The position numbers were made by a program, and so were the translations under genes. A stretch of 64,000 nt of DNA. It comes from Lingula anatina (lineage: Eukaryota > Animalia > Brachiopoda). Positions 1-39,266 of the stretch are shown one piece after another (positions within the stretch are counted from its first letter, which is position 1; the number at the start of each line of letters is the position of its first letter). Below the pieces are notes generated by a model that searched no databases, was not told the origin of the DNA, and saw only the letters and a list, made by a program, of their open reading frames with translations. Location: assembly GCA_051362555.1 (NCBI GenBank), contig CM120641.1, positions 39,686,401 through 39,750,400 on the forward strand. Reading direction: 5' to 3'.

Positions 1-3000
1 GCTGACTTCAAGTTTTCCCCTCCAGAGGGCAGAACCCCCTCAGTTACTTTCAGAAATGTGGCCACATTTCATAGCTAAAAATATAGAATTCAAGCTTCAA
101 CAACAGTTGGGAGATGGAGGTAAAGAGCATATTAAATTACAGTCAGGTTTTCCTACAGGTATACATGAAAACCAAATTGCTATTTTCCCAAGAGACGCTA
201 ATAGAAACCGTGAACAGCTTCATGAAGCTTTTAAGAATGGAGATGACAAAAACATAAACCATGTAAATTCCTTTTCTCAACATTTACCTGGGAACAAAAA
301 AGGATGCACTGAAAATCAGAATCTATCAGGGAAAGGTGTCCATTCAAAGGATTTGGTAAGGGAAATTGTTCAGAAAAGAATTGAGTCCAGAACCCCACCT
401 AGAGCTCAGATGAACAGTGTGTCACCAGTAATAGACAAGGAGGGGGCTCCAAATACTAGTTACATGAACAAAATTGAAGCAACTCCCCCCTGTGTGGTAA
501 CTGAGGGGGTAAAGGAGGGGACATTCCATCAAGCACAAACGCAGAGAGAAACTCTGTACAACAACTGGATAAATCCTCTGAATAGCTTTCATCCAGGGAC
601 TCCAAAAGATTCCAGGAACTCATTTACAGGAAACAACGCTGTTCCTGGAATAGATGGATTAAAAGCAAGTATTGAGAATGGACCTGGTCATTTATCTCAG
701 ATGGCCTCTCTTCCAGGGTTCTCTGGGAGAGAGAACAGCCACCAGGTGGAACCTTTGTCAATCCGAGCCAATCCTGGAGACTCTGCAAACACCAACTTCT
801 CCGGTAACAGCAAAGATCAATTTATGTCAGATCACATTCAGCCTGCTTCGACATCCACCCCTCACTGTGATACCACCACACAGCAGGCTGACAACACAAA
901 AGGAAACAATGTTTTAACAACTTCTGGTCCACAGGCACTGTCCTCCTCTGTGCCACCAATGCCAGTCCAGCCCAATGCTTTCATACCGCAGAAAGTGCTC
1001 CAGCCAGCTGATCTGGTCAATGGTGTGCAGGGGTCAGCTGGTGACCAGACTGGACATCTGACCACTGATGCAGTGGCCGATACCCTTGAGGAGCATGACG
1101 AGCTGTTTGAGAGACTGAAACTTAACCAACCTATCAAGGTGCCTGAGTGTGGGTGCCTGGGACCAGAAGGTAGGTTTTACTGTGGTGGAAAACAAAGTTT
1201 TTCTCCTCTAAATGCTTTGAATGTTGATGACTTTTTAGGATGTGTTGAAAGGTCCTTTTTATGGGTTTTCAAGTAGGCACAGTTCCTGTAATATATTTCA
1301 ATACGCTGATTATTACAAATGCAAATTATATAGCAATACCAAAAATAAAGGTAAAAATTTCAACAAAAGCTTACTTCTTTCCTTTTAAGTCTCACAGTAT
1401 TTTGTAAACTGCAACATTTTATGAAGTTTTTAACTTTCTATATGTACCCATGTCTCCACTTGTAGGTGTTAAAGAGAAGGATGAGGGACCATACTACACA
1501 CACCTGGGGGCTGGGTCTACAGTCCAGGCTGTAAGAGAACTGATGGAGAGGAGGTAGGTAATAATTGATGGGAGACAGGTAGGCAGTACTCACTTAATGA
1601 GAACAAAAAATCATAGTTATGTCTTTATATGTCATTTCATATGAAAAAAATTGTATCTTTACGGTGCTTACTCTCTGTTTGATGTTTAATTGACATGTCA
1701 ATGTTGTATGAAATATCTTAATGGTTTAAACTCTAAATATATTGTTTCACTGATGGGTCACGTGTTACATGATAATTTTGCCACCAGAATGATATCACTT
1801 TATTGACATGAAGGTTACTTATAACTGGTGGTATATGAATTTGGTTATTTGATACAATTTTCTTTCATATGAATGCTTAAATAAAGAACAAGGGTTTCAA
1901 AATCAAGGTACAGGTAACGAAGTCACCTTTAAATTCATTATGAATCATTTTATAAACCAGGTAGAAATTTCTGCAGGTAATAGTAAAATGCATAGCTTTA
2001 TGAGGTAGGAATAAAATTACACTTGTAATGTGAGCCTCAGGTTATTTTGCTTCTCATTAGCATCAGGTTATTGAAATGAGAGAGTTATTTAGCATGTAAT
2101 CCTAGCATATAAGGAATTTCAGAACATGCAAGATATTTAATGCTAAAAGATTTATCACACATTGGTTTTTGATAAGTCCATTGATGCAGACTGACCTATC
2201 ACATGAGTGTTAAAATACCAAGAGAAATGGTATTGTCAACATATATGAAAGTGCAGAGGGCAGGAAAAGTGCTTTTCACAAAACATTGTCACATCTAACA
2301 TATTTTCTTGATGTTCTTAATATATTTTTGTTATTGAGTTGAGCATTATTTTGCTGAAATATCGTAAAGAATTATGTCATTATCTGTAATATTCCAAAAT
2401 GTTAGGTGAGGTAGATCAGACAAAGAAATATCGAAGCCTAGGAAAGACTGTCAAAAATCAGGCAACAGATTAGAAATTTGTTTGGAGTAGACACAAGAGA
2501 AGGGAGGTAGTACTCAACCTTAAAGATTCATATGAATGTTCTCTGTCTCTCAGCATAAGAGTGTCTCCCACTCTGTGTGCATAGCTATAATCACCATACA
2601 TTATCACTCCCTTTGTGTGATACTTATCAGGTGTCACTCCATCGTAAAACCTTGCCAGTACTGGATAACGTGACAGGCTGATAATATCTTTATCAGGCTA
2701 ACTGAACAAGGGACAGGCATGTTCTTTCAGCTGACTGCTAATGAGAGATTTGATGAAACTGAAAGCAAGAACCCTAGTTACATTTTGATGTATGTTTGGC
2801 TGTGTAATATACAAATTAAAAGAGCAAGTCTCAAGAAAAACGATAAAGTCACTCTAGCTGACCTCTTTGCCATTTTTATAAAGGTTGGCAGGACTAACTG
2901 CTAGTGTATAACACCTGTAGCCTCACTTGCTGATTAAAGCATCTTGATTAATTCGGTGTTTCAAGAATGTAAGTTGTCTGCTCACCACATCCCTATGTAT

Positions 3001-6000
3001 TCATGCATCTGTTTATTTTTAGTGACTCAGTACTTTATTGATTTTTATTTTGAGGTATTGAAATCTTAAGAGTGATGATATCTCTGATTTTTAACTGTTT
3101 GAAAATTTCAGTATTGTAAACTTTGCTTTTCTATTTGTTTTGAGATGATCTTTTGTCATTTGCAGTTTAGGTTAAGTTTAATATTTATTTTTGAAGAGAA
3201 AGGCAATTTGTTTATCATCATGATTTTACACACAATTATAAAGAATAAATTAAAGGGATATCATTATCCTTCTGGTGGTTATTTTTCTTATAAAAAAAAT
3301 AAAACCACACACTTTACACATCATAATGAAGAAAGGAACTTGTACTTAATGGCTTAATCCTGCTCACTGTTATTCTAATTTCTATATAAATTTTTTTCTA
3401 ATATAATTGTGTGCCATAAAGGAATTAATTTTTTAACATGTGAAGATGATATATTTTACAATCATTATTGCAGCAAATTTCACAAGACTAGGTATAAAGA
3501 TGGTTTATAGACCAGCCTAGCCTAGCATATGATTGTGTCTGTTGTCGAGATTCGGCAATAAAATGACCTAATGTCATATTTTATATCCCGATGTTTTCTG
3601 TGTACTTAAAGACTTTCCATGCTATGTTAATTTATTTCAGGTTTGGAATGGGTGGCAAAGCAGTACGGATAGAAAAGGTCGTATACACAGGGAAGGAGGG
3701 AAAGAGTAGTCGGGGGTGCCCTGTTGCTAAATGGGTATGTTATTGGTAGTGTATGGAGAAATGTGGTGTGTTAAGGCTGTCTGTATTATACATGGAAGAT
3801 AGAAAGAGGAAATATGTGGACAGAATGTGTCATGGATTCTTAACACGAATAACATGCAGCTGAAAGCTTAATGACATAAATCGTGTCTTAAACATTAAAT
3901 AGTCCTGTTGTATTTAATACCAGTATTGTCATACTAAATGGTGCTCTTTTTATTTCTTGAACAGAAAAAGCACACTATTTAAGTTCTGCCTTTTGATAGA
4001 TAAAAAACCACACCTGATAACGTAAACTGCTTTTTGAAGCTGCATTTATTACCATTGGTATTTCAGATATTACGCAGGTCAGGCCCAGAGGAGAAAGTTC
4101 TTACTGTTATTCGCCATAGGGCCGGTCACCACTGTGATACCGCTGTCATTGTCATAAATATTGTATTATGGGAGGGTATCCCCAGCCCACATGCAGATGA
4201 CCTGTATAATTATTTACGCTCAACTGTAACTGACAATGGTTTTGAAACAGAACGCAGGTGTGGAACTAATGAAGAGTAAGTATATCATGAAATTGTGTCC
4301 CTTTTTATGCAGGGTTATAACATATTTTGCCTACTTCTAGGTAATAAGAAGAGCAGGCACCGAGGAAAAGGTTTTGTGTGTGGTAAAAAGAAGAGCGGGT
4401 CACTTTTGTGAATCGGCAGTTATAGTAGTCAGCATAGTATTATGGGAAGGTGTCTCTGAGGAGCAAGCAGGTTCCTTGTATGACTACATGATCCATACCC
4501 TGCCTGAGTGTGGGTTTGAAACTGATCGGCGTTGTGGCACTAATGTAGAGTAAGTTATTTCCAGATCTCCTGCCTGCCTGTCCCGCGGCCCTCATAGCAA
4601 TGTTCAAAAGGTGTACATGGATGTGGGTAGGTGGTTGTGGAAGTTTGTCAAACTGGAGATTTTGCTTATTGTTGCATCCTCAAACGTATCGCCATATACT
4701 TGCCTCAAATATAAATACGAAGACAAGGTTGGATTGTCCTATAATGGAACATTACAAAATAAAGGGGAAAAAAAATTATGGGCATTGTAAAGATGTAGCT
4801 ATATGGTAGTGGTAACCTAAACTAATGTACTTGTACCTGGATGTCTGTCCATCTTGGTGACCCAGGGGCTTATCACTATCATTGTGACAGCAAAGTTTTT
4901 CTGAAAAGGTTGAGAAATATAGTCCTTTGATCGGGTACCTGGAAATGCAGCTTCCCAATCAGAGTCATTTACCAGTGATTTTAAGATAAACTGAACTAAC
5001 TAACTGCTGTACAAGAGGAGTTACTATGTGCTACAACATTGCGAGTTTGTCACCTGACATCTCAGGTAAGGGGAATATGACTGTTGTTAGTTCTACAAAG
5101 GCTAATGTAAGGTAGACATTACAAGATTATGCATGAGGCCCCATTATACTTGTCTGGACATTAGATACACTGTAGGGCAGCAAAAACATACCCACCTTTT
5201 TTGGAAGAGTTTAAAATAACGACACAATTTAAGCTAGATAAAAAAAGCATTCTACAAAAGTAATTTTTTTTTTACAATATCTTTGATTAAACTACAGTCT
5301 GTTTTGGTATCCGTAAATATAACTAAGGGTTCACAGTAAGTGGTGTATGTTGTTATTCATAGAAATTCAATTACTAGAAGCCGTTTAGTATTTAGAAAAC
5401 TTGTTAAGATGAGTATTTCTCTGTGATACGAGCTTGTTTCTCAAGTAGAGGGAATCTGATCAACAGAAACCGTACATGTTACAAAGATTTTCTAGCATTT
5501 TTTTGTGTGAAGACTTATTTTTTAAACCTGCTTGCATGAAAAATCTCCAGTCAAAGACAAACTGCACAACCATATTATACATGGGTCTTAAATTACATGA
5601 AAATGTTGAAAAGTTTGATACTTCAAATAATAGCATATCTGTTTGCTATATTTCTTCTGCACAAGGCCAGTTGAAATCACCATGTTTCTATCTGCTCCAC
5701 CATGTGCCCATGCTTTATACCTATTTACAGCTTTGCTTGTGCTTCAGCTCATTTGCACATTTTATGATAAATGTTTTATTCTATATTTGTGTATAATTTG
5801 AAACTCTTTTATTCAGGCAAGAATCACACGCTCATGATGGTCACACATGCCTACACGCACACACACTGACATACGGATTTGTGTTTATTTACATAAATAG
5901 AACAGCAAGACATCGTGTATTTTATTTGTAACATGTTAGTTGAATAACACTGAACCCCAAGTTGCTACAAATCAAGTTATCTTATACAACTCAGTTTAAG

Positions 6001-8392
6001 GAAAAGGGGACCAGAAAAAAATTTGATTGGTTTATTGAATGAAAAAAATCTATATTTTCTTATTTATGTTATCTTACCATCTAATTAAGTAGATAACATT
6101 GACATTATCTATTTGTGCTGTGTATTGAGATGGATATCTTTGATAAGATATTTGCTATTTGTCTGTGTCTTTAGGAGAACTTGTGCATGCCAAGGCTGGG
6201 ATGACGACCGCAGGGGAGCCTCTTTCTCATTTGGCTGCTCCTGGAGCATGTACTACAATGGCTGCAAGTTTGCCAGGAGTAAAGTGGTTAGAAAGTTTAA
6301 ACTCAAGTGTCCTGATCATGTGAGTATTGACGTCTTCTATTACATGCAGCTTGGAAGGAGTTGGTAGTACAAGCATGGAAAATTAATAATCAGTGGCATT
6401 TGAATATCATCATGCATTGTGTGAAAAGAATATTTTGGTACTTCACTCATACAAGTTTGTTTAGATATCTTTTGAAACAATTTTGAGTAAGATATTTATG
6501 CAGTGTAAGAATATACCAGAGTTGCAAGCAATTGTACATTACCGTTTTCCTTGTTTAAACTATGTAGTTGTACCTTTGTTTTTCTAGGAAAGTAACATGG
6601 AGACGAGGATGCAACACCTGGCTGACCATGTAGGTCCACTGTACAAACAAATGGCTCCAGATGCCTACAACAACCAGGTGGGAGAGACAGTTTTACTGTA
6701 CATTTCATACACACATTGTGCATCTACAGGTGGCACATTTGTCACTGGGAATATTACTGTAAATCTCGGATGTTCACTTATCAGTGCTTGTAAAAAAACT
6801 TCAGGACCTGTTATAATAGACAGTAGATGTAGATTTTGTTACCACAAAGTTGAAGTGTGTAATCCAAAGCAAGTTGTGGCTGCAAATTTGCTTTTTACTA
6901 TGGAAAGAAGAGTATTTAGATTGCTACTTTAATTTGGTTATCTTAAAAATAATTATGATTAAGGTTTAATCAGCCATTGTATATATATATGGTAAAAAGA
7001 TTTAAGAGGGTTATTATATTTCTCATGTAAGAAAAGAAACTTAATAAAACTAGATGAAAGAAAAAATTGAAATTCATCGACTATGTACAATGTTTTGGTA
7101 TTAACTTCCATCTTGTTTTGCACCCAGGTCCAGTTTGAGAACCAGGCTTTGGAATGCAGGTTGGGAAACAACCCAGGTCGGCCATTTTCAGGGGTCACAG
7201 CTTGTGTAGACTTCTGTGCTCATGCTCACAAAGATGTACACAACATGAATAATGGAAGCACTGTGGTAGGTTTTCTGTATATGATATTTTGTCATTGTAA
7301 AAGCAACTTTCATTTGTTTGCCTTTGTTTTCAAATAAGTACGGCTGGAAATACATTGTCACTCATTTGATGTGCCAGTAAACCCTACTGAAACAAGTGGA
7401 GTAAAATGGAAAAAGGAAATAGGGATATCCTGTTTGCCACTTACCTTTGCTTATAAATAAATTAAAAGTCAAACATATTCCTTTGTATCTCTTCATTTTC
7501 AGTTGAAATTGCATTAAGGCTGAACAGTTTTGATGGACCCAAAATTTTGACGCAAACTTTAGTTTGCATATGTAAACCACTGCTGGTGTTGTTTTTACAG
7601 GTTGTGACTCTTACCAAGCACCGTGGCTTTGAGAAACCAGATGATGAACAACTCCATGTTTTACCTCTGTACAAATTAGATGCTGTTGGAGAAGATGGGA
7701 CCTTTGATGAAACGAGAAGAAAGATTGCATCTGGGGCCTTGGAAGTGTTGACTAAGTACCCGATGGAGACCAGAGTGCGGGCAGTGCCCCTCACACCTTG
7801 TAAGAAGAGAAGTAAAGACAGAAAGTCTAAAGATAGCCCAGGCCGTAGAAAATTGTCACCAGTGAGAGTCAAATCTCCTGCGCATCTGAATCAAAGCAGT
7901 CCTTTGGCACAGAAAGTTGTTGACAAAGTGAAAGCAAAAAGGAAACCAAAGAAATTGGAGATGAACAAGGGATCAAACTGGGAAGGTTACTCTGACGGCA
8001 ATGCAAAGATATTTAAGAAAGAAATGGTCCCGCAACAGTATCAGAAGGAGCAGGACCGCCAGCTAGCAGAATGGCAGGCACAGATGGGGCTACGGCCTAT
8101 GTATCCAAATGTGATGATGCAGCAAACAGCCATGATGGGGGGAGAAATGCCCCAAGTCCACCCTCAGTGGGGGTTCCCTATGATGCCCATGCACCCACAT
8201 GTACAGCAAGGGTTTCCAATGGGGGGCAACATGATGAATTATGGAGGATTTCCACATTGGCCAGCAGGTCTACCTAGTATGGACAACATCCATAAAGATC
8301 AGGCAAATCAACAGAATAAAAATAAGTTAGGGCATTCCATTGATCAGCTTCTCCAGGCTGGAAATAACCCAAATCTTCATCCCCATCTTCTT

Positions 8393-8424
<32 letters not shown>

Positions 8425-10048
8425 ACAACAACAACAACAACAACAGTACTTAGAGAGACAACAGCACCTGGTAGAACAGCAACAACATCATCAGGGTCAC
8501 CATCAGATTAATAATATGCAACATACTAACAATTTAATCAACAAGCTGAAACAAGAAAATATCCAAGCCAGTCGATCTGTACCGACCTCACCACTGCATT
8601 CCAATATTAAGCATGAAATTCCAAGTCCATGTCATCTTGCTATGCAGCAACAGCAGAAGCAGGGCTGGCCACAGGGTACTTTTCCACAATACCGACAAGA
8701 GAATGCCCAACAAACTGTAAAACAAGAACCAATGAATGGAAACCGACCAGATTATCCCCTTTCTCAGTTAGGCCAGCATGCAGAGACACAACACATGGCT
8801 TCACATCCTGGATCACAGACACCAGCAGGAGGGAATTCTTCTGGCCAGCAGGTGACAGTAGGAACTCATGTTACTGGCCAGCAGATGGCAGCAGGCACTC
8901 ATGGCACTGGTCAACAGATGGCAGCAGGAACTCATGGTAATGGCCAACAGATGGCAGCAGGAGGTTGTGGTACTGGGCAACAGATAGCAGCAGGAGCTCA
9001 TGTTACTGGCCAACAGATGGCAGCAGGTGATCATGGCAAAGAACAACCAAAGGCTCCTGGTACCAGCCACCAGATGGCAGCAGGACTCTCACCACTTGAT
9101 CTGTTGACCATGGCTGTGGAAATCCAGTCTAGAGATCTGGAAAACAAACGTGGACATCCTGAAGTTAACAATAGACTGGTGAATCAGAACTTTCCAAAGG
9201 GTGCCATTCAAGGTGATATAAAATCTGAGATTCCCCAACAGTGTTCGCTGAGAAGCAGCTTACCTCAGGAGATCAGTAATAAAGCAATATATGATCAAAG
9301 TCAGAATACTGCAGCAGCGCCATTAGCTCAGGGCAGCAGCAACTGCAATATGCAACAACAGCCAGTTGCTGATCATCATCTTGCAAATGCTAACAATTAT
9401 ATTCCATCAGCTAACAACACTGCCATTCAAAATACTATATTTGATACCAATAACAAGAATCAACATGATAATAATCAGTATTTATCAGGTCAACCCCCTA
9501 CCTTACCTTCTGTGCCAGTGGACAATACCCCTAAGGACTTTGAGTATCACTCTGACAATGAGGAAGTCTTTCATGATGAGGAGGTGGGTGGGGTTGCCAT
9601 TGCTCTTTCTCATGGGTCTATATTATTTGAATGTGCAAAGCGAGAGCTTCATGCAACCACGGCATTGAAGAACCCTAACCGGCATCATCCTACCAGGATT
9701 AGTTTAGTGTTCTATCAACATAAAGCTATGAATAACCGATACCATGGTTTGTACGAGTATGAGCGGAAGCTGGAGATGTGGAAAGAACGGCGTATGAAGA
9801 AACGTTTGGAGGCTGGACAACCAGAACCCACAGACAATGAAAAGGCCGAAGCCTTACTTGGAATACAGGGAAAACGTAAGAAGAAGTCTGCAGAGGAGGA
9901 GAAGAAATTGAAGTTCAAACCACCCGTATATAGGTATATGTGGCCAGCTCCTCTTAAGATGTCTAGTACAGCCACCACTGATACAGTGGTGACACGCTGG
10001 ATAAAACCACAAACCATGGTAACGGGTCCATATCAGAAGTGGGTGTAG
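1..10048 (+). CDS. TET: TET methylcytosine dioxygenase, 3' part (5' end upstream of window). Exons: <1-1169, 1466-1553, 3641-3734, [4067-4275 or 4341-4549], 6175-6319, 6588-6677, 7128-7265, 7601-10048
   Basis: GT-AG exons join in frame. Cys-rich region motifs: [70 protein letters not shown] motifs: [19 protein letters not shown] (Fe-binding HxD), [38 protein letters not shown]-terminus TGPYQKWV. All match recalled metazoan TET motifs. Confidence 0.96.
4067..4275 (+). CDS. TET: TET Cys-rich-domain exon, copy A (209 nt)
   Basis: tttcag|ATATTACGC...GAAGA|gtaagt; encodes [37 protein letters not shown]...[11 protein letters not shown]. Confidence 0.93.
4341..4549 (+). CDS. TET: TET Cys-rich-domain exon, copy B (209 nt; putative mutually exclusive alternative to copy A)
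   Basis: ttctag|GTAATAAGA...GTAGA|gtaagt; open frame [37 protein letters not shown]...[11 protein letters not shown]; same length and phases (0/2) as copy A; 40/70 aa identical by manual alignment. Confidence 0.88.
8393..8446 (+). repeat. CAA/CAG repeat encoding Q18 in the TET low-complexity insert
   Basis: 18 consecutive CAA/CAG codons. Confidence 0.95.
8843..9040 (+). repeat. Coding minisatellite, 6 x 33 nt (GQQMAAGxHxx) in the TET insert
   Basis: GG(C/T/G)CA(G/A)CAG recurs at 33-nt period from 8843; a partial seventh copy (HQMAAG) follows near 9068. Confidence 0.9.
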
Positions 10049-26792: not shown

Positions 26793-29700
26793 ACGCATTA
26801 TATACCACCTAGTTATCCATTGCAAATGAAATTTATAACCATATGGATAGCGGCATATCGGTAGCTTGTCGTTGTATTGTGTCCAATAGCTACTGTGACC
26901 TTAAACTCTTTAGTATGGGTTTTTGCTAAATTCGTCTTAAGCTGTCCGTTTTCTCCTAGTTATGTACAGTATAGCTTATTCACATCTTCCTTTTGGTGTT
27001 CCTTTGTCGCATATACTATTTCCAAAGATTTCCCTAAAAAAATCGGCTTTGTCCTTATTTACCATCAATATTGATATTCGTGTATAAAATAATAAATAGA
27101 TTATGCATCCCCTTCCCCCCCCCCCCAAAAAAAAAAGTTGCAAGATGACTTTCTAGATCTATAGACAGAGACTATGTGGCTGTATTGTGTCTGTGTGCGT
27201 GTACGTGTGCGTGCGTGTGCGTGCGTGTAAACTTTTCATTTTTCACACATTGACATTTTCAAGGTGTGGCCTTGAAGTTCCATAGTCCCCTGAGCTAGTT
27301 TATTATAAGGATGCAAGTGCCATTTCTAATGGACAGGATGGTCTTGTAACGAAATTACATCTTGTGATGGTCATACCGCGTGAGTAGGAGCAATGTTATA
27401 TTACGATATTCTTACATTGTTTCTTTATCCATTTCAAAAAATTCACCCGTCTAACTTAGCACTTGTCAAGTGCATAAAATAGTCCAGTCCAGGATCAGTA
27501 GTAACGGTGTGTGAAGCCCGTTCATGTCGATAGTTTAAGCCTCTATCAAAACTCTGAGAACATAAGATCATAATTGATCCGCATAATGCCTTGACACTTC
27601 AAAAGCTGCTGAGTTATCTACTTGAAGCAAACGCTACACTGGCATCTCATTGAACTATCCTCTAAGCGCGGCTAACCTTTGTTAAAGTCAATGTTGAGTT
27701 GCAGTATTACAGTCCCAATCGAAAAGGCACTTTCCAACACTGAAATTGATATTTACATATTATCTTATTGCCTTTATTACAACCCAATATGCTTGGGACC
27801 TTAAAAGTACAAGTGCTACTAGTATACCAATAACCGCCTGCATGTATGTCAGTGCCCACTAGCATATGACATATAAATAACCAGTAAAAACTGCTTTGCT
27901 GTTGTATAGCAACGGATTATCCCTGGGGATACACGGGGAAGTGTAGATAACAGATTCGACCATAGCATGTATGTGGTGTTAATGAGCCGGCTGTCAGGGA
28001 TTGGACCCAGGGGATTAAACCCCCAACCGAGGGGGGGGGGGGCGATCTTGAAATGCCGGAAACGGGACGTAGACATATCAATAATTTACAACCGTTATAT
28101 GTACTAATGCAGCGCAGTGGCACTTTCCACGAACACAGTAAGTTTTATCGACAGATTTGAAGTGATCTGAAGTGGAGCTTTGAAAACGCCATTCTTAGCA
28201 CTGCTGAATGATGCCTTGTCTGAAGTGAATTTACTTTTAATTTGCCATTGTTGTCTTTAAAGCGACGACTGTTGCAGAGAGGCGTCCCAGTATCATACGC
28301 TATTTGCCAGTTATACAATGTAATTTAATTGATCCCTTGTACCTTTGCAGGCGAAAAACAAGTTCATCATGCTGAAGGTTCTGAAGCAGTTTCGGGGCAA
28401 GGACACTGCAAGACAAAATTCAGAGGAATCCGACAAAACGCGTCGCCAGAGTAAATTGTCATCTGAAACCAAGAGTCCAAGCACGGATGATGACCTCGAA
28501 GATTCGGAATATAACCCAATGTATAAATTACGAGATGCCAGACAACGAAGCACACGGAAATGTATCATATTGCATTATTCGCCGTTCAAAGCCGTTTGGG
28601 ACTGGATCATTTTGCTGTTGGTATTGTACACCGCTGTCTTTACGCCGTTTACGGTAGCGTTTCTCTTAAACGAGGACGAAAGAAAGATGCAACAGAACCA
28701 TGCTCCTAAAACACGAGAGAGAAACGCAGGAAAATCTCAAGCTGAACCTTTGGTTATCATCGACCTCTTGGTTGACATAATGTTCATCGCCGACATTCTA
28801 ATAAATTTTAGAACCACTCACGTCCACAATGGAGAAGTGGTCTCCGACCCACAGAAAATTGCTAAAAACTATCTGAAAGGCTGGTTTATCATTGATGCCG
28901 TGGCCGCCATTCCATTTGACTTGCTTCTGTTTGGCTCAGGCACTAGTGATGTAAGTGTTACATATTTGAATGCATGTGTCATGTTTGCGTAATTGCACGC
29001 GCTTGCATGAAACATTTAATTAAATTTGTCTTTGCTTTAAGCATTTAACAATAGCTGGAAAATCAGGTAAGGTATTGCCTCCACAATACTCATAAGACGG
29101 AACATTGTCAGGCAATTATACGATTTGCTTCAAACGTATTGATTCCATTAACAATTTATCCATCTGCCATATTACAAGTACAAGTTATTTTAAAATATCT
29201 CAAGTCAGTGGAGAGTTGTGAAAATACCTTTTTTTAAAGAAAACCAAAAAGATAAAAAATTTATATATAAAGGCATCAAATTTCATGCTTAGACAAAACA
29301 TTTTCGAGGAAAAATCATGAGACAGTAGCCTATCTATTGTGCAGCACGATAGAGGTGTAACCGAGAGAGGGTTGCAAACGAAACGTGAATTGTTTTGTTT
29401 CCTCTGTAAGTTTTACGGGCAGCCGTGACTGATTCAATAGGTTCTTGATATAGCAACTGCAGTATATTTGGGTTTATCTCTTATAGCGCTAAATTCATAC
29501 TTCTCCAACATCAAGACGCACTGTTCTATTTCACCAGCCAAGTTTACCGTTTGGTAAGTTGATGGAGCTAACAAATGCAATCCTCCAATTCTAGTCCCAA
29601 CGCAGCTATTTCCAACCGCTGGCCAATTATTTGGAACGCTGAAGTAAAATTGCTGCATGCCCAATCCATACTTACACTATTACGCGTTCGTACATAAGTA

Positions 29701-32700
29701 CTCCCTGTAGACTGAGAGCAACGTTAAGCGACATTGAAGGTGCCTCATCTGGTTCGGAAACTATACCAAACAATGTTTTATGATTTACTAAATTAAGCCA
29801 GCAAGATGGGTTACCAAATTTAAAGCACACAATGGCTCCTTCTAGACCCCATCAAGAACAGACAAATGCCAATTGTAATTTTCAATCCCTTTTTATCTCA
29901 AGTGTGTTTGAAAAATATCTCAAATTTGTCTTTGAAAATAAAAGGGCAAATATTGTTAGTTGAAATATTGTTTAATATTGCAATTCTACTCCAAGAGAAA
30001 GGTAAAACACACGAATACGAAAATGCCAGGTATAGCATGTCTGTGTTGTAATATCATCGCAACTTCAGCGAAATAGAAGAGAGTAAGCATAAAAAATAGA
30101 CTAGTATTCGCACGCCTTCAGATGGTCACCTACACTTTGGCAAATATCCCAGGACGTAGTGGTTTGATTGTTTAACTTGCTGAAAACACGGACACTCGAG
30201 GGACAATGTGCATTATTCAAAAACAATCAGCAGTTAGATATTAATATCACGTTTCCTCTTGAGACCTATAAAACACTTGGAGTCAATACGAAACCCTTTT
30301 ACTTAAACAGATACTGGAATGGGATAGAATTGAACATTCAATATTTACTTGGTTATAGAAATACAATTGCCTCCCTTTTTAGCCAGTGCCAATATGACGT
30401 TTATCAAAAGAGACGTTTTTTCTCTCGTGGTTTGCTCAAGTTGACACACTAAAATATTCTTCTTCCCAGCAAAGCAAACTTGAGCTAAAAAAATATTCAT
30501 TATACCTCAAGCTTTTTGTGTTACATCTGTTGTATTGTATGTATATTGTCATATGGAAGATAATCTCGTCTAGAATCACTTTGGAAAGAGGTAATTGTTG
30601 CCCATAAGCCGCTTATAACTCAAACATTGAATTTGACGCATCGATTTGCTCAGCTAAATGGCCAGACATTAATCGAGCTGGATATGAAGAAGCACATGCT
30701 GCTGACGCTGATAAGGCGACAAATTTCCCTGACTTCTAACGAGCAGGCCCTCCAAAGTTTCGGCACTTTTACTGAAATTATATAACAGAAAATTGGCGTT
30801 GGTGAAAGCAATTGCACAGTAATCACATTGAAAGAGACGTGTTATGTAAAAGTGTTAGTTCCACCCAGCAGTTAATCACCATATAAGGCAAGAACACCCA
30901 AGTATAGGTTTTTACGTTACAAAATGGCATTGTATTTGAATTATGAGGCAAGAACGTCCTAGCATAGTTTTTTTTTTTTTTTTACATTTTTTGAACTATG
31001 AAAGTTTGTAATCACAACGTTGATCAAAAATGGAAAAAAAAAACGTATGCTGTATTTTATTCGAAAACATCAGTTTTCTACGAAATTTATATATTTATTA
31101 AGACAAACTGTCGTATATTATTCAGCATGCTATGTCAAGTGACGATTTGAGCCATCGCAGTGCAGTGAGTATAAGCTGAGAGTGCGTTTTATTTCCCGTC
31201 AAAGTTTCATTTTCAGATATACACTGACTAAGCCCTTAAGCAATATATTTGAGTCGTAGCACAAATCGACACACATGAAACCATTAATAGCACTTTTCTT
31301 TATGTGATCATCATATTAGACACATAAGTAAAAAGTTACGTAGTTGGACCAACACAAGACAGCACATAAAGGTTCGCGCAAGTAAATAAAAATGGAGTAT
31401 AAAATGGACCATAAACAAGCACTGCCCGATAATTTTTATGCATATGAGTTGATTCCTTGACCACTGCTTGAAAACATCGCAATGTTTGACAGCACAGCTT
31501 GAAATACGCCTTTATGTTGGACCTTTGTGAATTATAATGGCTGCAGAAATACCTTCAAAATGACGTCAAAGTACATGTAGTATACTTGTATATCGGTTAA
31601 ACGGCTTAGTAATTTTTTAAACTTTACTTTTTGTTTAAAATACATTATCGTATATTCATCTCCTCATAAATTTGAAATAATTCTTTTTTTCTTGGAAAGA
31701 ATTATTTATATTTTTCAGGAGACCTTGGAATTTCTTTTCCGTACGGTTTTAATCATGCTAAACGTCTAATTTCAGACCATGACCATCACTGGCGTTCTAA
31801 AAACCGCGAGACTGCTGAGATTACTCCGCGTTGCCAGACGCATGGACCAGTATTCTGAGTACGGTGCTGCTGTGCTGCTTTTGATGATGGCACTGTTCAC
31901 GCTCATTGCCCACTGGCTGGCTTGTATATTTTATGGCATTGGATATGTCGAAAGACCAACATTAAATGAGCCTATATCATGGCTAGATACACTAGCCGAT
32001 AAAATGCAGACGCCATATCTAAAAAATGATACAACTAGTGGCCCAGATATCACATCTCGATACATTACTGCACTATATTTTACCCTCACAACGCTCACGA
32101 GTATTGGATTTGGAAATGTAGCGCCAAATACGAACGCCGAGAAAATATTCGCTATATTTGCCATGATGGTTGGATGTAAGTATATGTGTTATTGTTATAA
32201 CAACTTGCTCTTATAAGAGCAAGTATATAGTCATTTTATAGGGTAACAATGCTTTCTTCCAATAATACACAAAGCTTATGTTTTCTTCTTTTTTCAGAGG
32301 TATAATGTATGTGCAAAGCAACGTACTATTGCAAAGTAATAAGAATTAGATATTCAACTTCTTTTCTTTCACGGATTGTCATTTTTTGGTTAGTTTCAAA
32401 CTACCTACAGCATTGCCATCAAACCATTGTATAAGGTGAATAGACGGACGTTTTTCCAAGAAACGCCGCTCTTTAGCTTAATGCGTTGAATTCTAGTTGA
32501 CTCGAAATGATATACCACCTTGGGCGATTTCCGTTTAGTTTATTGAAGAACTAAATAGAACCTTTTGTATCGTCAAAGAATATTGCATGTTATCATGCTC
32601 AAATGTTCCCGCAATAATGAAATACTAATGAATTCATCAATTCTTCATCATAGCTCTCATGAGCGCTGCCATCTTTGGAAACGTTTCTTCCATCATGCTG

Positions 32701-35700
32701 CGACTTTATCAAGGAACAGAAGAATTCCATGAGCGTTCCGAGAGCATAAAAGAGTTTATCAAATTCCACAACATCCCTAAACAGTTGGCAAACAGGCTTC
32801 AGGAATCGTTCCAGCATTCGTGGACGTACACCAATGGAATTGACATGCAAAGCGTAGGTTTATCATCTCCATGCAGTCTTCATTATAACAGAACAGGAAC
32901 GTATTTTACTGCGTGTTAGTGGGGACGCTAATAACATCGCAATTTGACAAAGGAGATGTCCTTCCTTTCTTGTCGTGTTGTTTCAATCCTCAGAGTATTC
33001 TTTCTAAGTATAACAACAGAATAACATTTAAACAGAAAGTTTTTGGAATGGCTGTTTTATCAGCGACATGTTTTTCCTCGTGAAATATTGACCTTTTAAT
33101 TGCAAAATATGCCTTATTTTCGGCTTGTTCAACGCTGTAGAGAAACGTAACATTTTACATTGTGAGAAACAAATATATTTTTCCATGGATTGTATTTACC
33201 TGATGTATGACATAATGATATATCCTTATGTTATAGGTATTGAAAGGTTTCCCAGACTGTCTGCAGGCAGACATATGTCTTCATCTTAACCGGAATCTCC
33301 TGAATAGTTCCGCAGCATTTCGAGGCGCTAGCCCTGGTAAAACTTTGTTTGCGTATTGGCCAACCATGCAGACCCATCGATGCAGATAATTTTACTGCAT
33401 CGATGTCGATGAAATCACATAAAACCATCTGCCGCTTTGGATATACTGTACATATATTTAATGCACACGATATTGCTTTATTTGGTCAGCCTTTGGGTCT
33501 CCAACTCTATTGTTTAAAAGTAAAACTGTTTAATTAATTTAAATTTTATTCCGAAATTTATTTGAATTTGATCAATACAGTAACAATCTTTCTAGAACCA
33601 TAAAATACGTGGAAAACATTATCACTTCAGAGCAAGAACTGAAATGAATTTCAAAATTGAAAAGTACATGCACTGGCTTGTTGCCATTGGTGCATAATTT
33701 GAGATAGGAACTAAAAAAAAGTTCCTGTGAATTTTGTATTTAATTACAGGTTGTCTTCGAGCATTGTCGCTTAAATTTCGCACTACGCATGCGCCTCCTG
33801 GAGACACGCTGATTCACCCAGGGGACATATTGACCTCCATCTACTTCATAGCAAGAGGATCCATTGAGGTCCTGAAAGATGACATAGTAATGGCAATTTT
33901 GGGTAAATATAGCCTTTTTCGATCGTATAAGTATTTGGCACATTTGGTTCAAATGAGCGTGAAAGTTATCAAGTCTGTTATAGTAGGCCTAAAAGTATTT
34001 TTCAGACAAGTGAAAGATTCCGATTATTAATTTGATTTTTTGGGTGTGTCACTAAATACCGAAATACAGTGAAGTACACGAAATACAACGAAATACCACA
34101 TTAAGATTATTTTAAACGTCAAAACAATTGATTCTGCACCCCGAATTACGTTTGTCTTGAACTCAACATAATATTTATTTGTAACGGAGAAATATGTTCA
34201 CAGATTCTGAGTTAGGAAAGAAGTGGGCGTTCACACTGTCCGCCTACTTCCGTCGCAGCTGCCAAAAAAGAAAAAAATCACTGTACTGACTCGATCGGCA
34301 GACAAACATCATGTTGCCTTGAAGACAAATGTATTTTGGGGTGCATAATAAAGTTTCTTAAGTTTAAAGTAATCTTAAGATGGCATTTCAAGGCATTTCG
34401 TGGTATTTGGTTTTTGTATTTTTCGCATTTTTGCGTATTTTGTGTCTATATATAGGAATGGGATCCTGGCCGGCTTGGAATTGGGCACTGGCCGGCTACA
34501 CAGTGGCACGTATAAGCACGAGTCAGTGAGGGAATTTCAGCCAGTCAGGAAGCTGTCTGAGCAATTGCACTATAATCAGCGGCCTTTCATCTGGCTTAGA
34601 AAAAAACAATAGAGTAGACTCTTTCATGCCTTTCAATATCAGAGAACCACAATAGAATGAGCTCTCTACGAGCTTCGCACTCAAATATATATGAGCCCAA
34701 ATACAAATGGCATGGTGGAATTGGCAAATGTAATAGAGCTTAATTGCATATACTTTCCATAGTCTAATGGAACCGTTTGTCTTTTATCCTCTGTTAGTGA
34801 ATACATTCGCTCTGACCAAGTTAGCATGTTCTATGAAGAAGTACAGAAATATAGCAGCACTTAATACATCATTTATGGCTTTTGGCTAAAATCGATCAAT
34901 TGCTTTCTGTTTTCGTGTTTGCTTTTCTAAATCACACTAACAGAATAATGAAAGCATACTGATGCCATTAACAGAAAGTGAATTAAAACGTTATTTGGGA
35001 ATGGCCGTCTCCTGTGCCTTGTTATTTTTTTGTCTGCCTTGACTTTTTTTAATCAAATGTGAAAATGAATTACTGAAATGTATTTGTTTTACATGTTATT
35101 ACTATCGGGACCACTTTCAGTTGCGTTGACAGCTTTTGGATTGCAGATAACAGGCCGGTGCTGGCTTAATCATACATCGGCATGCATTAAGGGGACCATT
35201 CCCAGACCCTATCCCACTAACTGTGGGTCGATCTATCTCCAAACTAAACTGCTAAACTGCAATCAACTTAAGCGGCTTAGATGTCTGTCACGCTTACTGA
35301 AGCTGCTAGGGCGTGCCAGACATCTAGACCGCTTTAGCTGAAAGCGATTTAGCTAGAAACCACTTGGAACGGGATCGATCCTGTTAGATCGATCTAGGTA
35401 TGGAAACTCAGTCTAGCATTATGATCTCTCTCGTTTATTAAAACTGGCTATGCACCTTTTTTGTGTGACTAAGAGCATATGGTTTCCTTGACAGATTCCA
35501 TATTTATGCTAATTATTACAGGAAAAGACGACATTTTCGGCGAAGACGCCAGTAACTTTTCCACCTTGGGCAAGTCCAACTATTGCGTCAGGGCTCTGTC
35601 CTACTGCGACCTCAATAAGATTGATATCGATGAGCTGCAAGGAATCCTCAATACATACCCAGAATTTACCAAAAAGTTTGTTAAAAACTTCCATGTCACA

Positions 35701-38700
35701 TTTAATCTGAGAGACGTAAGTAGATTTTTTAATTATCTTATTTTGATAGAACACTTGTTTCCACTTCATATATAATTGTGTTTGTCCGTAAGATGTTTAA
35801 TGGAGCATCTTGTCACATTTACGCTGGAGCATGAATTTAAAAAGTCGGTATATTTACAAACATTGTCAATTGGTGCTTTGTGACACGGTTCTGACTAGAA
35901 ATTGGAATCTTCTAAAACAAAGAACATCCAAATATTTACAGGACTATTGCTATGCTACCATAACTAAAACGTAAATTATACCTTTCCGTGCTGTACGTCA
36001 TTGCTTTGCACAATACGTGTCACATCCGTTTTCTCTAACACAATCAGCTCTCATTTAGTGCGCCTTTTGCGCCATTCTGCACAGAATCCAATTCGTCTTT
36101 ACCATATTCTTTGATTCTAAAACAATCGACGTGCATATTTTTGTCTTTAAGTGTTCGCGTATCTCACACCCACTTGTTCTGTTACCCATCTCCACTCATC
36201 ATTTAATTCCCTGCTGTCATCTCCTCTTTGCATTGAATGTCTCAGCTTCTGCATAATTGCACCTACTTGACACCGATGTGTTCATCAAAATGCGTCAGTT
36301 TACCAAATACCTCCTCAATTGCACCATGTCATATTTATTTGTACTTTATGATAATATGATAAAGCTTTCTAAATGTACATGTGCCACCAAAGCTTGCAGT
36401 TCCTTGCATGTCATTATATGTTGTGTAGTATGCCAACAGCTGTCGATGTAGGCGTGTTCCTTTTTGTTCTTTGAAATGATTCTTTAAAATGTCAGACAAA
36501 CTATGTATTTCATATCTAATGAGGACTTTCCACCGTTTATCGTTACGCATCCAGCCGAGTGCCACGGTAAGCGGAATAGTATGATGGACATTTTTGGTCT
36601 GTTTTAAAATGGCGCCTTCTTCTGTCTCTTTAGAAAACAACACCGGGATTATAATCGTGGCTTTAAAATATATGGTAGAAATTGTAAAAGGAAAGAGCAC
36701 GAAAGTATATTAAAAACATTCGCTCTTTCTGTCTTCAGTATAGGCACAGAGTTTGTTTTTTGAAATGGCTATTCGTTATTGTATGTATTTGCAAGCTTAT
36801 GGAGCATTATTGTAAAAACTAACAAAGTACCTTACGCAGAGAAGTAAGTCCCTTAAGTCTGTTGTATTTTTCATAGGGCCAATACCTCCACTGTACAGTG
36901 TAGATTTACAAACAGTAGTTTGTCATACATGTTTATGAAACCTAAATACAAATGCACAAACGAACAGATCGTAAACATGTTTCATATTTAACAGGGGCAG
37001 TTATTAAAGCAGAGAAAATCCGGGAAGTTTGACGAACAAACCCTTCGTTTCATTCGCCAGAAGAGACCTAAACTCCAGTGCAGAGGAAGACCATCGGATG
37101 CAGATACCCGCGGAGGTAGGAACAACTTTTTTCATACCGTCCTCTTTCATACCCAGTTGGTTTTAATAATTGGATGAATTTTTATTCCGTTTTCCCGATA
37201 TTTGAACCATCACCTGGAGACATCAACTATATTATTTGATCGATACACTTAGAGTGGATCTCAATACAAGTGCAATGATAGCACATTTGTCATTTTTTCA
37301 TGATTTGCCACGCCAGTGGAACACTCGCTAAGAACGTCTATGTCATTCTAAAATACCCGTGTAATTCATAGCAATCTTGTTTCTGAAACAAATGTAAGAT
37401 CAATATTCATTATTCTATATATTTTAAGTACCGCACAATAGAAATTTGACTCAGGTTTTATATTCACCAAAGGTGCTCCTGGAAGACAACGATTTGGAGT
37501 TAGAAAGAAGATCCAGAACGCTCATGAACGACATGCAGCTCGCGTCGCAAGAGGTCACCTCCGCTCCACGAGCAGAGACAAAACCCAGGCATCCATTGCA
37601 GAGTCAAGTGACGAAGAGGAACCCAAGATACTCGAGCTCTCCACGCAAAGATCCACTGATATTCAAGGTACTGCCACCGTAGGTCGGTACCGGAATAAGA
37701 AAACCAAGAGGGATGCGTTTAGGCGGAGCTCTGTGCCTGGTATTTATTCATTTATTGTACCTTTATGTAAGGATTTTGGCATTTCTTTTCGGCGAGTAGT
37801 TTTAGTCATTCTTTGACAGTGAGCTTAATCAGTAAGCTCAATCTGGACATGACAAGTTTTGCAAGCATAGTTTCTGTATCTCTGGTGGGCATTCGCAAAT
37901 GCAGTCAGTAGTAGACTCATTTCTGGTGTGAGTATTCATCTAGTTTTTGATGTTCATATCTAAACAGGTCTTTCACTAATTTCGAGTGTTACAGTATGCC
38001 TTTATTTCAATATTACAGGTGTGGCTTTCTCATCATTAATCATGCCTGCACATGTGAGGCAACGTCGAACGAGCCAGCCGGCCATACTTACGAGCGCCCT
38101 GCAGGAACCACCCCAGAAGGAAGCAGATATACCTGTATTGGCTCTTCCTCCTCCAAGTCAGCCGATATCTGCCAGCGACTCGGCAGCACTGGAGCAGGAC
38201 AGTGGCGTTCCCCTCACTCATCAGTCTGGCGATTTGCCACTTGGTGTTTCTCACGAAAGCTCGTCATCTCTGGTACCAAAATCCAGCGTTTCAAGCGTTG
38301 GACCATTGCATCCGACCTCAGCGCCGTCAGACTACGTCATACAGCCACAGCCCGTACAACAGGTGCCAGCAGAGCCTCACCACACACAGGGGCAAAAACT
38401 GACCTGGGCAGAGGTGGACACTAGGCTAGATCATCTTACTAGGTATTAAACACCGCTATCTTTACATGTTGTTCGCGAACTTGCAATGAACAAGTCGCCT
38501 GTCGCCTATATGACAGTATGTAGCCGTGACCAGTATGTCAAAGATCTACCAAGTTATTCTTAGTTCTATTGTACTTTGAACTGGATGCTACACTAACTTA
38601 CATAGTTCAGATCACAAACCTTTCTGGATATATGGATTATTAGTTGATGGAACCTTACATTAATTTCATATTTTAAGGCATTCTAATCTAGAAGGATAAA

Positions 38701-39266
38701 AACTTAAATAGATATTTTGTAGCACGGCGGAAACGCATTTATTATTTTTTTCAGCTAAGTTTTAAAAGTCATGTTGCCACGAAGCAAACTTTGATATCAA
38801 CTTACTGTGTATGAATTTACTAAAAACCATCCCTTACTTAGTTTTAAATAAAAAAATTCTCCTGAACTGCTCCTATTCGTATTATATTGTAATACAGGTA
38901 TCGCTTTGGTGCTGTAAATATCAGTGCACGGTAATACTGCTTTAGGTAATTTTCCTTTAAACTTAAATTTGATTTTTTTTTGTATATTATAGGAGGATGA
39001 AAGCCTTCGAGTATAACCTCACTTCAACAGTGGACGCCATACTGGAGGTGCTTGGCTACGACCCTGCAGTCATTCGACCGCTCTATCAGCAAGGCGTCAT
39101 GGGAAGCGTTCCCCCTGATACAGGGACGCTTACGCCCACGGACGCCCGTCACGATGTTATTCTGATTAGACGGACCCATTCAGATAGCACTGTTATAGCA
39201 GCGCCAGCACCATTTGATCAAGTTGGAGATCAGACGGGAATACAGAGGGCCATGACGGCCCCTTAA
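14561..39266 (+). CDS. KCNH2: ERG-subfamily voltage-gated K+ channel (KCNH2/6/7-like, Kv11), PAS-less. Exons: 14561-14689, 28351-28950, 31776-32175, 32654-32853, 33237-33336, 33750-33902, 35522-35715, 36995-37115, 37473-37739, 38019-38442, 38993-39266
   Basis: S1 [29 protein letters not shown]; S4 [24 protein letters not shown]; pore [16 protein letters not shown]; C-linker/[41 protein letters not shown], intrinsic ligand TFNL; C-terminal coiled coil [20 protein letters not shown]. Exon phases are compatible. The first exon and distal C-terminal boundaries are less certain than the core. The symbol denotes the family, not strict orthology. Confidence 0.92.
20688..20846. mobile_element. Short MITE-like element (Tourist/Harbinger-like termini) in KCNH intron 1
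   Basis: Imperfect ~24-bp TIRs GACCTCGTTCACAACCAGTTGATC / GATCAACTGTTTGTAAACGTGGCC, an internal perfect 14-bp inverted repeat (20730-20743 vs 20813-20826), and TAT on both flanks. Confidence 0.6.
26571..26790. repeat. Compound microsatellite (CT)n(CA)n, then (TCTA)n
   Basis: Directly visible at 26571-26665 and ~26755-26790. Confidence 0.92.
34042..34446. mobile_element. Diverged MITE with long imperfect TIRs and subterminal GAAATA repeats
   Basis: Left ...GAAATACCACATTAAGATTATTTTAAAC...TGCACCCCGAATTACGTTTGTCTTGAA is the reverse complement of right TTGAAGACAAATGTATTTTGGGGTGCA...GTTTAAAGTAATCTTAAGATGGCATTTC, over ~100 bp with mismatches. Confidence 0.65.
35190..35410. repeat. Degenerate foldback/palindromic element in a KCNH intron
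   Basis: AAGCGGCTTAGATGTCTGTCACGC ... GCGTGCCAGACATCTAGACCGCTT forms a ~24-bp stem, with weaker outer complementarity. Confidence 0.55.

What the first reader, a model, noticed from the sequence alone, without database searches (positions are those of the whole stretch)
4067..4549. Tandem duplicated, apparently mutually exclusive exons in the TET catalytic Cys-rich domain
Seen: two 209-nt exons with canonical splice sites, identical phases and no stops, about 57% identical in protein (40/70). Both keep the GHxC zinc-ligand motif, IVLWEG and RRCGTN. They are only 65 nt apart, and including both would shift the frame (209 is not a multiple of 3). Established: in human TET2 the equivalent segment is a single exon carrying Zn ligands H1219/C1221 and the R1261/R1262 pair that contacts 2-oxoglutarate and DNA. 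Inference: one invertebrate TET gene makes two catalytic-core variants by exon switching, an alternative to the vertebrate TET1/2/3 gene expansion, possibly tuning substrate or tissue activity. High divergence with intact key residues suggests an old duplication under purifying selection. I do not know of a description of this, but cannot check the literature.
Basis: partly seen in the sequence, partly recalled or inferred. Interest (0 to 1): 0.88.

Follow-up and report, generated by a model that had tools for sequence, protein, structure and literature searches.

The report
Either-or exons in invertebrate TET enzyme
The gene for TET, the enzyme that starts removal of DNA methylation, in a spiralian animal (likely an annelid worm) carries two diverged copies of one catalytic-domain exon, and RNA reads show them spliced in as alternatives in proportions that differ between samples, giving two enzyme forms that are predicted to share the active-site residues but differ on an outer helix.

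Summary
Confirmed. Exons A (4067-4275) and B (4341-4549) are 209-nt paralogues (39 of 69 residues identical, dN/dS about 0.19) in a TET gene, 65 nt apart. In 8 RNA-seq runs all four alternative junctions occur (A 89 reads, B 37); no A-to-B or skip-both joint was listed. B's share ranges from 0 to 64% between runs (permutation p<1e-4), including 0 vs 53% in two runs with the same alleles, so the switch is likely regulated. Exclusion is likely steric (best branch point 44 nt from A's donor), backed by an immediate stop if both are joined. Both copies keep the invariant residues; differences cluster on one face of a predicted helix, plus D-to-G and E-to-V in B, so a change of partner surface or stability is more likely than new chemistry; no activity was measured. 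No second copy in 29 homologous loci or in the listed TET isoforms of other phyla, so it looks lineage-restricted and its age is open. Ten literature searches found no TET catalytic-domain exon pair, and the scan's notes hold none, but such exon pairs are a well-known design. New member of a known kind; interest 0.5.

The parts
2..1169 (+). Large upstream TET coding exon (5' end lies outside the window)
   Evidence: Open frame; RNA joint 1169-1466
1466..1553 (+). Constitutive exon (GPYYTHLG motif)
   Evidence: RNA joints; translation
3641..3734 (+). Constitutive exon upstream of the pair; its donor is spliced to A or to B
   Evidence: Joints to 4067 (39 reads) and to 4341 (20 reads) in 8 runs
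4067..4275 (+). Exon A, default alternative, 209 nt, equivalent of human TET2 residues about 1199-1268
   Evidence: Junction reads in 8 of 8 runs, 89 in all; PDB match
4276..4340 (+). 65-nt intron between the copies; best branch-point candidate at 4320, 44 nt from A's donor; an unused acceptor-like site ends at 4312
   Evidence: Sequence; motif scan; other introns of the gene 268-2087 nt; no joint across it listed, a few unspliced reads cover it
4341..4549 (+). Exon B, sample-dependent alternative, 209 nt
   Evidence: Junction reads in 5 of 8 runs, 37 in all; 64% and 53% of junction reads in X4 and X5; PDB match
6175..6319 (+). Constitutive exon downstream of the pair (CACQG motif, start of Pfam Tet_JBP)
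   Evidence: Joints from 4275 (50 reads) and 4549 (17 reads); PF12851
6588..6677 (+). Constitutive exon
   Evidence: RNA joints; open frame
7128..7265 (+). Constitutive exon with the HxD iron-binding motif (HAHKD)
   Evidence: RNA joints; PF12851 above cut-off; motif
7601..10048 (+). Last coding exon: low-complexity insert, then the second His and RISLVFYQH part of the catalytic fold, stop codon
   Evidence: RNA joint 7265-7601; PF12851; translation

Best explanation
One TET gene carries a tandem-duplicated catalytic-domain exon pair that is spliced as alternatives, with A in every sample and B abundant only in some, likely under tissue, stage or condition control, giving two enzymes that are predicted both to be active and likely differ in an outer helix surface (partner binding or stability) rather than in chemistry. 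How it works: the upstream donor (3734) is joined to the acceptor of A or of B, and the chosen exon's donor is joined to 6175 (shown). The two are likely kept apart because the 65-nt intron puts B's branch point only about 44 nt from A's donor, too close for one spliceosome (inferred); any A+B message would carry a stop right after A and would be a target of nonsense-mediated decay (stop shown, decay inferred). The swapped 69 residues form a strand-rich segment with the conserved GHxC motif, a helix and the loop with the R1261/R1262 equivalents (secondary structure predicted on a limpet homologue). The loop and the invariant residues are kept; 15 of 20 positions in and around the helix differ, nearly all non-conservative ones on one face.
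For: Junctions up-A/A-down/up-B/B-down: X1 3/11/0/0, X2 3/8/0/0, X4 4/5/7/9, X5 9/5/10/6, X6 4/5/0/0, X7 8/1/1/1, X8 2/9/2/0, X9 6/6/0/1; no A-B joint, no skip, no listed deletion. Heterogeneity chi2 41.7, df 7, 0 of 100000 permutations; on distinct read starts 0 of 50000. X5 and X6 show the same variant alleles at 8 listed sites yet B is 16 of 30 vs 0 of 9 (Fisher p 0.005); X4 differs from X5 at site 6605 yet is also B-rich. dN/dS about 0.19. All columns that are invariant or nearly so among 136 unique homologous exons are kept in both copies except column 69. Branch-point candidate 44 nt from the donor; PMC5740500 uses <50 nt as the steric criterion and says MXE clusters mainly have one ubiquitous and one regulated exon (passages). 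Helix at exon columns 40-57 in the model (model matches TET2 structures, E 1e-27); shared residues lie at helical angles 220-20 degrees, most non-conservative changes at 40-200.
Against: Read numbers are small (9-30 junction reads per run; 6-30% of each run read) and joints under 3 reads in a run are not listed, so rare co-inclusion is not excluded; reads are shorter than the exon, so no read spans both junctions. Sample tissue, stage and treatment are not given. The branch point is a 5-of-7 consensus match, not mapped; another equal candidate lies at 4269, inside exon A. The differences look like ordinary orthologue drift (B scores above 42 of 124 dereplicated homologues, A above 101), so the two forms may be functionally equal. 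The model is of a homologue, mean pLDDT 66; neither isoform was folded or assayed. B has two unusual changes (Gly at column 44, 0 of 124; Val at column 69, 2 of 124) that could touch activity.
Confidence: 0.6

Rival explanations
1. Neutral subfunctionalisation: both copies encode equivalent protein, and both are kept only because each became the spliced copy in some cells.
For: A/B differences sit in columns that vary among orthologues (entropy 2.25 vs 1.04 bits, p 2e-5) and both copies score inside the orthologue range; A-B identity (39 of 69) is close to the median between dereplicated homologues (35 of 69).
Against: A strong sample-dependent switch and near-saturated synonymous distance imply long retention of a regulated pair; B has residues that are rare or absent elsewhere.
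Confidence: 0.22
2. The switch tunes catalysis: B changes rate, product profile (5hmC vs 5fC/5caC) or flanking-sequence or substrate preference.
For: The exon carries the R1261 equivalent, which stabilises all transition states through 2-oxoglutarate (PMC6244454 passages). B replaces a nearly always acidic residue five to six positions after it by Val and has Pro and Cys just before the loop.
Against: Columns 58-68 are identical but for Glu/Asp. The residues that papers tie to sequence preference (R1302, Y1295, passages) lie in the shared downstream exon. R1262A is reported to have a minor effect.
Confidence: 0.13
3. B, or the unspliced A-intron-B form, is mainly a way to lower TET output (weak isoform or unproductive RNA).
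For: Reads cover the 65-nt intron in X4 (4), X7 (3) and X8 (1) at site 4292, in X7 with little other intronic depth; that form has a stop right after A. B carries a coding variant at 4459 in runs X7 and X8.
Against: 20 reads join the upstream exon directly to B, B keeps the invariant residues and shows low dN/dS. Intronic reads occur elsewhere in X1, X2 and X4 too.
Confidence: 0.04
4. Assembly artefact (two haplotypes or two genes merged) or a dead duplicate.
For: No whole genome was held to check for a second TET locus.
Against: RNA reads join the same flanking exons to both copies, and reads run across the DNA between them; the copies are 38% different in DNA while allelic differences are scattered single bases.
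Confidence: 0.01

Closest known systems
Mutually exclusive homologous exons from tandem exon duplication (human sets: PMC5740500 passages and supplement search; PMC4494069 passages; PMC9741552 listing and supplement search)
   Same: Two same-length paralogous neighbours, one per transcript; one default and one regulated exon; short donor-to-branch distance and frame shift as safeguards.
   Different: None of the passages or supplement hits names a TET catalytic-domain pair. The only TET entry seen is a human TET1 candidate of 54/60 nt with a lysine-rich sequence unrelated to this exon. Most human cases are over 400 million years old and widely shared; this one was found in one genome only.
Animal TET dioxygenases (Pfam PF12851 Tet_JBP; human TET2, PDB 4nm6, 5d9y, 9hxv)
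   Same: Same domain order, motifs and exon: 29 of 29 homologous loci have a 209-nt exon with AG and GT at the same places.
   Different: The exon is single in all other loci and isoform sets examined.
Honeybee AmTET splice variants (PMC4150289, passages incl. section 3.4)
   Same: A single invertebrate TET gene diversified by alternative splicing.
   Different: Bee variants differ in 5' ends, micro-exons and the CXXC module and are described as identical in the catalytic domain; here the catalytic domain itself is swapped.
Oyster alternative oxidase with duplicated exon 10 (PMC5589949, abstract) and vertebrate OGDH exons 4a/4b (PMC7969005, abstract)
   Same: Duplicated exon in an enzyme, ratio changing with condition or tissue; in OGDH exclusivity is enforced by branch points near the upstream donor.
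   Different: Different enzymes; AOX uses alternative last exons; both have measured regulation, which is lacking here.

Membership tests
Mutually exclusive homologous exons | Adjacent paralogous exons of similar length and the same phase | tested here: met
   209 nt each, same frame, 39 of 69 identical
Mutually exclusive homologous exons | Each exon joined to both common flanking exons in RNA | tested here: met
   39, 50, 20 and 17 reads for the four junctions in 8 runs
Mutually exclusive homologous exons | No exon-joining or skip-both reads | tested here: met
   None listed in 8 of 8 runs; listing needs 3 reads in a run, so up to 2 per run could be hidden
Mutually exclusive homologous exons | An enforcing mechanism (steric, U2/U12, RNA pairing, decay) | tested here: inconclusive
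   Branch candidate 44 nt from donor, not mapped; all donors are GT of the major type; 2 of 9 pairing tests beat 20 shuffles, both weak bulged duplexes; stop on co-inclusion
Mutually exclusive homologous exons | Conservation of the pair across species | tested here: inconclusive
   0 of 29 loci have a full second copy (13 hold both flanking exons); no close relative of the window's organism was available
Animal TET dioxygenase | Tet_JBP domain with HxD and the C-terminal His/Arg segment | tested here: met
   PF12851 above cut-off in two exons; HAHKD and RISLVFYQH present
Animal TET dioxygenase | Cys-rich region with GHxC and the R1261/R1262 pair in both isoforms | tested here: met
   Alignment to TET2 chains; columns 21, 23, 63-65 kept; numbering agrees with R1253, T1259, R1261, R1262 in PMC6244454. 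That H1219 and C1221 bind zinc is recalled, not read in a paper here
Animal TET dioxygenase | Oxidation of 5-methylcytosine by each isoform | not testable with these tools
   Needs an enzyme assay
Animal TET dioxygenase | N-terminal CXXC domain (optional in the family) | not testable with these tools
   The gene's 5' part lies outside the window and no genome is held

The most novel reading that the evidence does not exclude
A spiralian lineage makes two functionally different TET enzymes from one gene by a tissue- or stage-controlled swap inside the catalytic domain, changing what the demethylase binds or how far it oxidises methylcytosine: a splicing switch on active DNA demethylation, where vertebrates used gene duplication.
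Probability: 0.3. Interest if true: 0.75.

Novelty: new member of a known kind. Interest (0 to 1): 0.5.

Why it matters
Invertebrates mostly have one TET gene (PMC8330077 passages), and described invertebrate TET splice variants leave the catalytic domain unchanged (PMC4150289). In annelids TET expression rises while methylation falls during development (PMC11292947 passages), but how a single TET is tuned is open. A natural pair of catalytic domains that differ in one 69-residue block, switched between samples, is a ready two-protein experiment on what the Cys-rich helix and loop do, and it warns that gene-level TET counts in this animal mix two proteins. The design itself (duplicated alternative exons) is common, which limits the surprise.

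Tried and rejected
No whole genome held, so a second TET locus and minimal intron sizes could not be checked. No RNA holder was listed by word index; the nine runs came by species label; 8 of 9 were laid, X3 was not. Word-based protein search with exon B found nothing (weak evidence). HMMER over 1.84 billion representatives gave no close relative of either copy (best identities 67% to A, about 62% to B among the 63 new rows printed); the only hit with two copies, a Danionella model, repeats an identical segment 1039 residues later and is likely an assembly or annotation artefact. Isoform sets: 48 of 52 listed members of 10 clusters (nemertean, molluscs, hemichordate, amphioxus) hold the exon and agree at 67 or more of 69; 57 of 97 listed members of 11 further groups hold it, lowest agreement 59 of 69; at most 15 members per cluster are listed and the only named annelid, Owenia, has one member. 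Exon trees: A and B are not sisters in either tree, but holding them together is not rejected (AU p 0.28 and 0.16), so the age is open. A tree of shared exons places the gene among protostomes outside the mollusc, nemertean and chelicerate groups without a supported sister; annelid is inferred from the CACQGW motif shared with Owenia, Capitella and Helobdella. Competing RNA pairing: no convincing docking site. Partial duplicates in L005 are not a second exon. The Atlas did not hold the one sequence tried. Hu et al. 2013 and the Drosophila exon catalogue of 2013 are not held. Long TET sequences in the supplement of PMC8330077, including Platynereis, are cut in the held copy, so their exon version was not seen. 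No complex prediction was run: no partner is known.

Full report
OBSERVATION. The window opens inside a TET gene on the + strand. Exon A (4067-4275) and exon B (4341-4549) are both 209 nt, begin after AG, end before GTAAGT, and are open in the same frame. They share 129 of 209 bases and 39 of 69 residues (40 of 70 counting the split last codon). Identity by codon position is 42, 56 and 29 of 69, dN is 0.37 and dS about 1.9, a ratio near 0.19 with synonymous sites close to saturation. Each copy matches the same stretch of human TET2 chains at E about 1e-16. Joined with the flanking exons, either copy gives an open frame of 1460 codons from the window start; both together give a stop right after A; neither gives a frame shift. 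There is no third copy in the window. A neutrally decaying copy would not look like this: at distance 1.0 the best of 5000 simulated copies kept 26 of 69 residues.

RNA. Nine raw-read RNA runs with the same species label were offered; eight were laid, 6-30% of each being read. Junction reads (upstream-A / A-downstream / upstream-B / B-downstream) were X1 3/11/0/0, X2 3/8/0/0, X4 4/5/7/9, X5 9/5/10/6, X6 4/5/0/0, X7 8/1/1/1, X8 2/9/2/0, X9 6/6/0/1: 89 for A, 37 for B. No joint from A to B, no skip of both and no deletion was listed; the tool lists a joint only from 3 reads in one run. B's share is 0, 0, 0.64, 0.53, 0, 0.18, 0.15 and 0.08 (chi2 41.7, df 7; 0 of 100000 permutations; on distinct starts 0 of 50000). 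X5 and X6 carry the same variant alleles at 8 listed sites but have 16 of 30 and 0 of 9 B reads (Fisher p 0.005), and X4, which differs from X5 at 6605, is B-rich too. Genotype is therefore an unlikely cause; tissue, stage or condition is inferred, as labels are not given. A few unspliced reads cover the intron between the copies (X4 4, X7 3, X8 1 at 4292).

HOW EXCLUSION LIKELY WORKS. The intron between the copies is 65 nt; the gene's other introns are 268-2087 nt. The best branch-point candidates (5 of 7 to a recalled consensus) are at 4320, 44 nt from A's donor, and at 4269, inside exon A; either would hinder A-to-B splicing. PMC5740500 (passages) takes under 50 nt as the steric criterion and lists frame shift with decay as a second safeguard, which applies here too. 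Donors are all of the major GT type. A scan for competing RNA pairings gave 2 of 9 region pairs beyond 20 shuffles, both weak bulged duplexes, and cannot be checked by conservation. None of this was mapped experimentally.

WHAT THE SWAP CHANGES. Column j of the exon corresponds to human TET2 residue 1198+j; this agrees with the spacing of R1253, T1259, R1261 and R1262 in PMC6244454 (passages), which also says R1261 acts through 2-oxoglutarate and R1262A has a minor effect. The zinc role of H1219/C1221 is recalled. Among 136 unique homologous exons (filtered on the RRC/RKC motif) the invariant columns are kept in both copies, except column 69, acidic in 136 of 136 and Val in B; in a wider set of 124 dereplicated exons Val occurs twice, and B's Gly at column 44 never. 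A model of the limpet catalytic domain (mean pLDDT 66; matches TET2 structures at E 1e-27) reads the exon as three strands (columns 1-4, 11-17, 27-34), a helix (40-57) and a loop. Differences are 13 of 37 in the strand part, 15 of 20 in columns 38-57 and 2 of 12 in the loop. On a helical wheel the shared residues lie on one side and most non-conservative changes on the other, likely the exposed face. Against a functional split: the differing columns are those that vary among orthologues anyway, and both copies score within the orthologue range. Residues tied to flanking preference in PMC9451156 and PMC8786823 (passages) lie in the shared next exon.

SPREAD AND AGE. Best named relatives are lophotrochozoans at 50-57% in the C-terminal part. 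A tree of shared exons leaves the gene among protostomes with no supported sister; the CACQGW motif is shared with Owenia, Capitella and Helobdella, so an annelid is likely but not shown. In 29 homologous loci from animal DNA in metagenome assemblies the exon has the same 209-nt borders and 0 of 29 has a full second copy, 13 of them holding both flanking exons. Listed isoforms from a nemertean, molluscs, echinoderms, a hemichordate, amphioxus and ticks show one version only (48 of 52 and 57 of 97 listed members hold the exon). No close relative was available, so spread within the lineage is untested. A and B are as far apart (57%) as A is from Owenia (65%) or scallop (67%); they are not sisters in two exon trees, but sisterhood is not rejected (AU p 0.28, 0.16). 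The duplication is old enough to saturate silent sites; more cannot be said.

COMPARISON WITH WHAT IS KNOWN. It works like, and meets the tested criteria of, a mutually exclusive homologous exon pair. Ten full-text searches (listings read) gave no description of such a pair in a TET catalytic domain; the library lacks most subscription papers. PMC8330077 and PMC11292947 (passages) describe annelid TET genes with no hit for isoform or splicing in the main text. Honeybee variants are identical in the catalytic domain (PMC4150289). The human catalogue has a TET1 candidate pair of a different, lysine-rich short exon; the one held supplement of PMC9741552 has no TET hit. Close analogues in other enzymes are oyster AOX and OGDH (abstracts). 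The scan's notes have no TET exon pair but 49 notes hold the words for exon pairs in annelids (unchecked), which lowers the surprise of the design.

VERDICT. Real, expressed, selected and sample-dependent; shown steps are the sequence, the four junctions, the ratio differences and the conserved residues; inferred steps are the steric mechanism, regulation by tissue or stage, activity of both forms and the role of the helix face. New member of a known kind, interest 0.5; 0.75 if the isoforms prove functionally different (probability about 0.3 for the strong form).

Noticed in passing
window 28333-39263, + strand: Multi-exon potassium channel gene; two exons match Ion_trans; sequence suggests the EAG/ERG family (recalled).
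   Followed up: partly
window 48245-54280, + strand: 2012-codon open frame of Ser/Ala/Thr-rich tandem repeats, mucin-like; no Pfam hit in the first 1000 residues.
   Followed up: partly
window 8393-8445 and 8841-9027: Poly-Gln run and a 33-nt (11-residue) repeat of 5.7 copies in the low-complexity insert of the last TET exon.
   Followed up: no
window 4302-4312: Acceptor-like site inside the 65-nt intron; its use would shift the frame; no joint to it is listed.
   Followed up: partly
window 4459: Coding variant in exon B (Glu to Ala, column 40) in all covering reads of runs X7 and X8; 24 of the 27 listed exonic variants of the gene are silent.
   Followed up: partly
window 2386-3078: Stranded intronic read depth of 2.5-4 in run X2 only, without joints; unspliced RNA or an unlisted exon.
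   Followed up: no
L005 2656-2715 and 2828-2887: Two short recent copies of the acceptor and first about 50 nt of the same exon upstream of the real exon in another animal; not full exons.
   Followed up: yes
L002, L004, L005, L007, L009, L020, L027-L029 vs L008, L010-L019, L021-L026: The host-animal TET loci fall into two sequence types, which suggests two TET genes in those hosts; both types group nearer exon A in one tree only.
   Followed up: partly
window 61947-62724: 189-nt tandem repeat, 4.1 copies, 89% matches.
   Followed up: no
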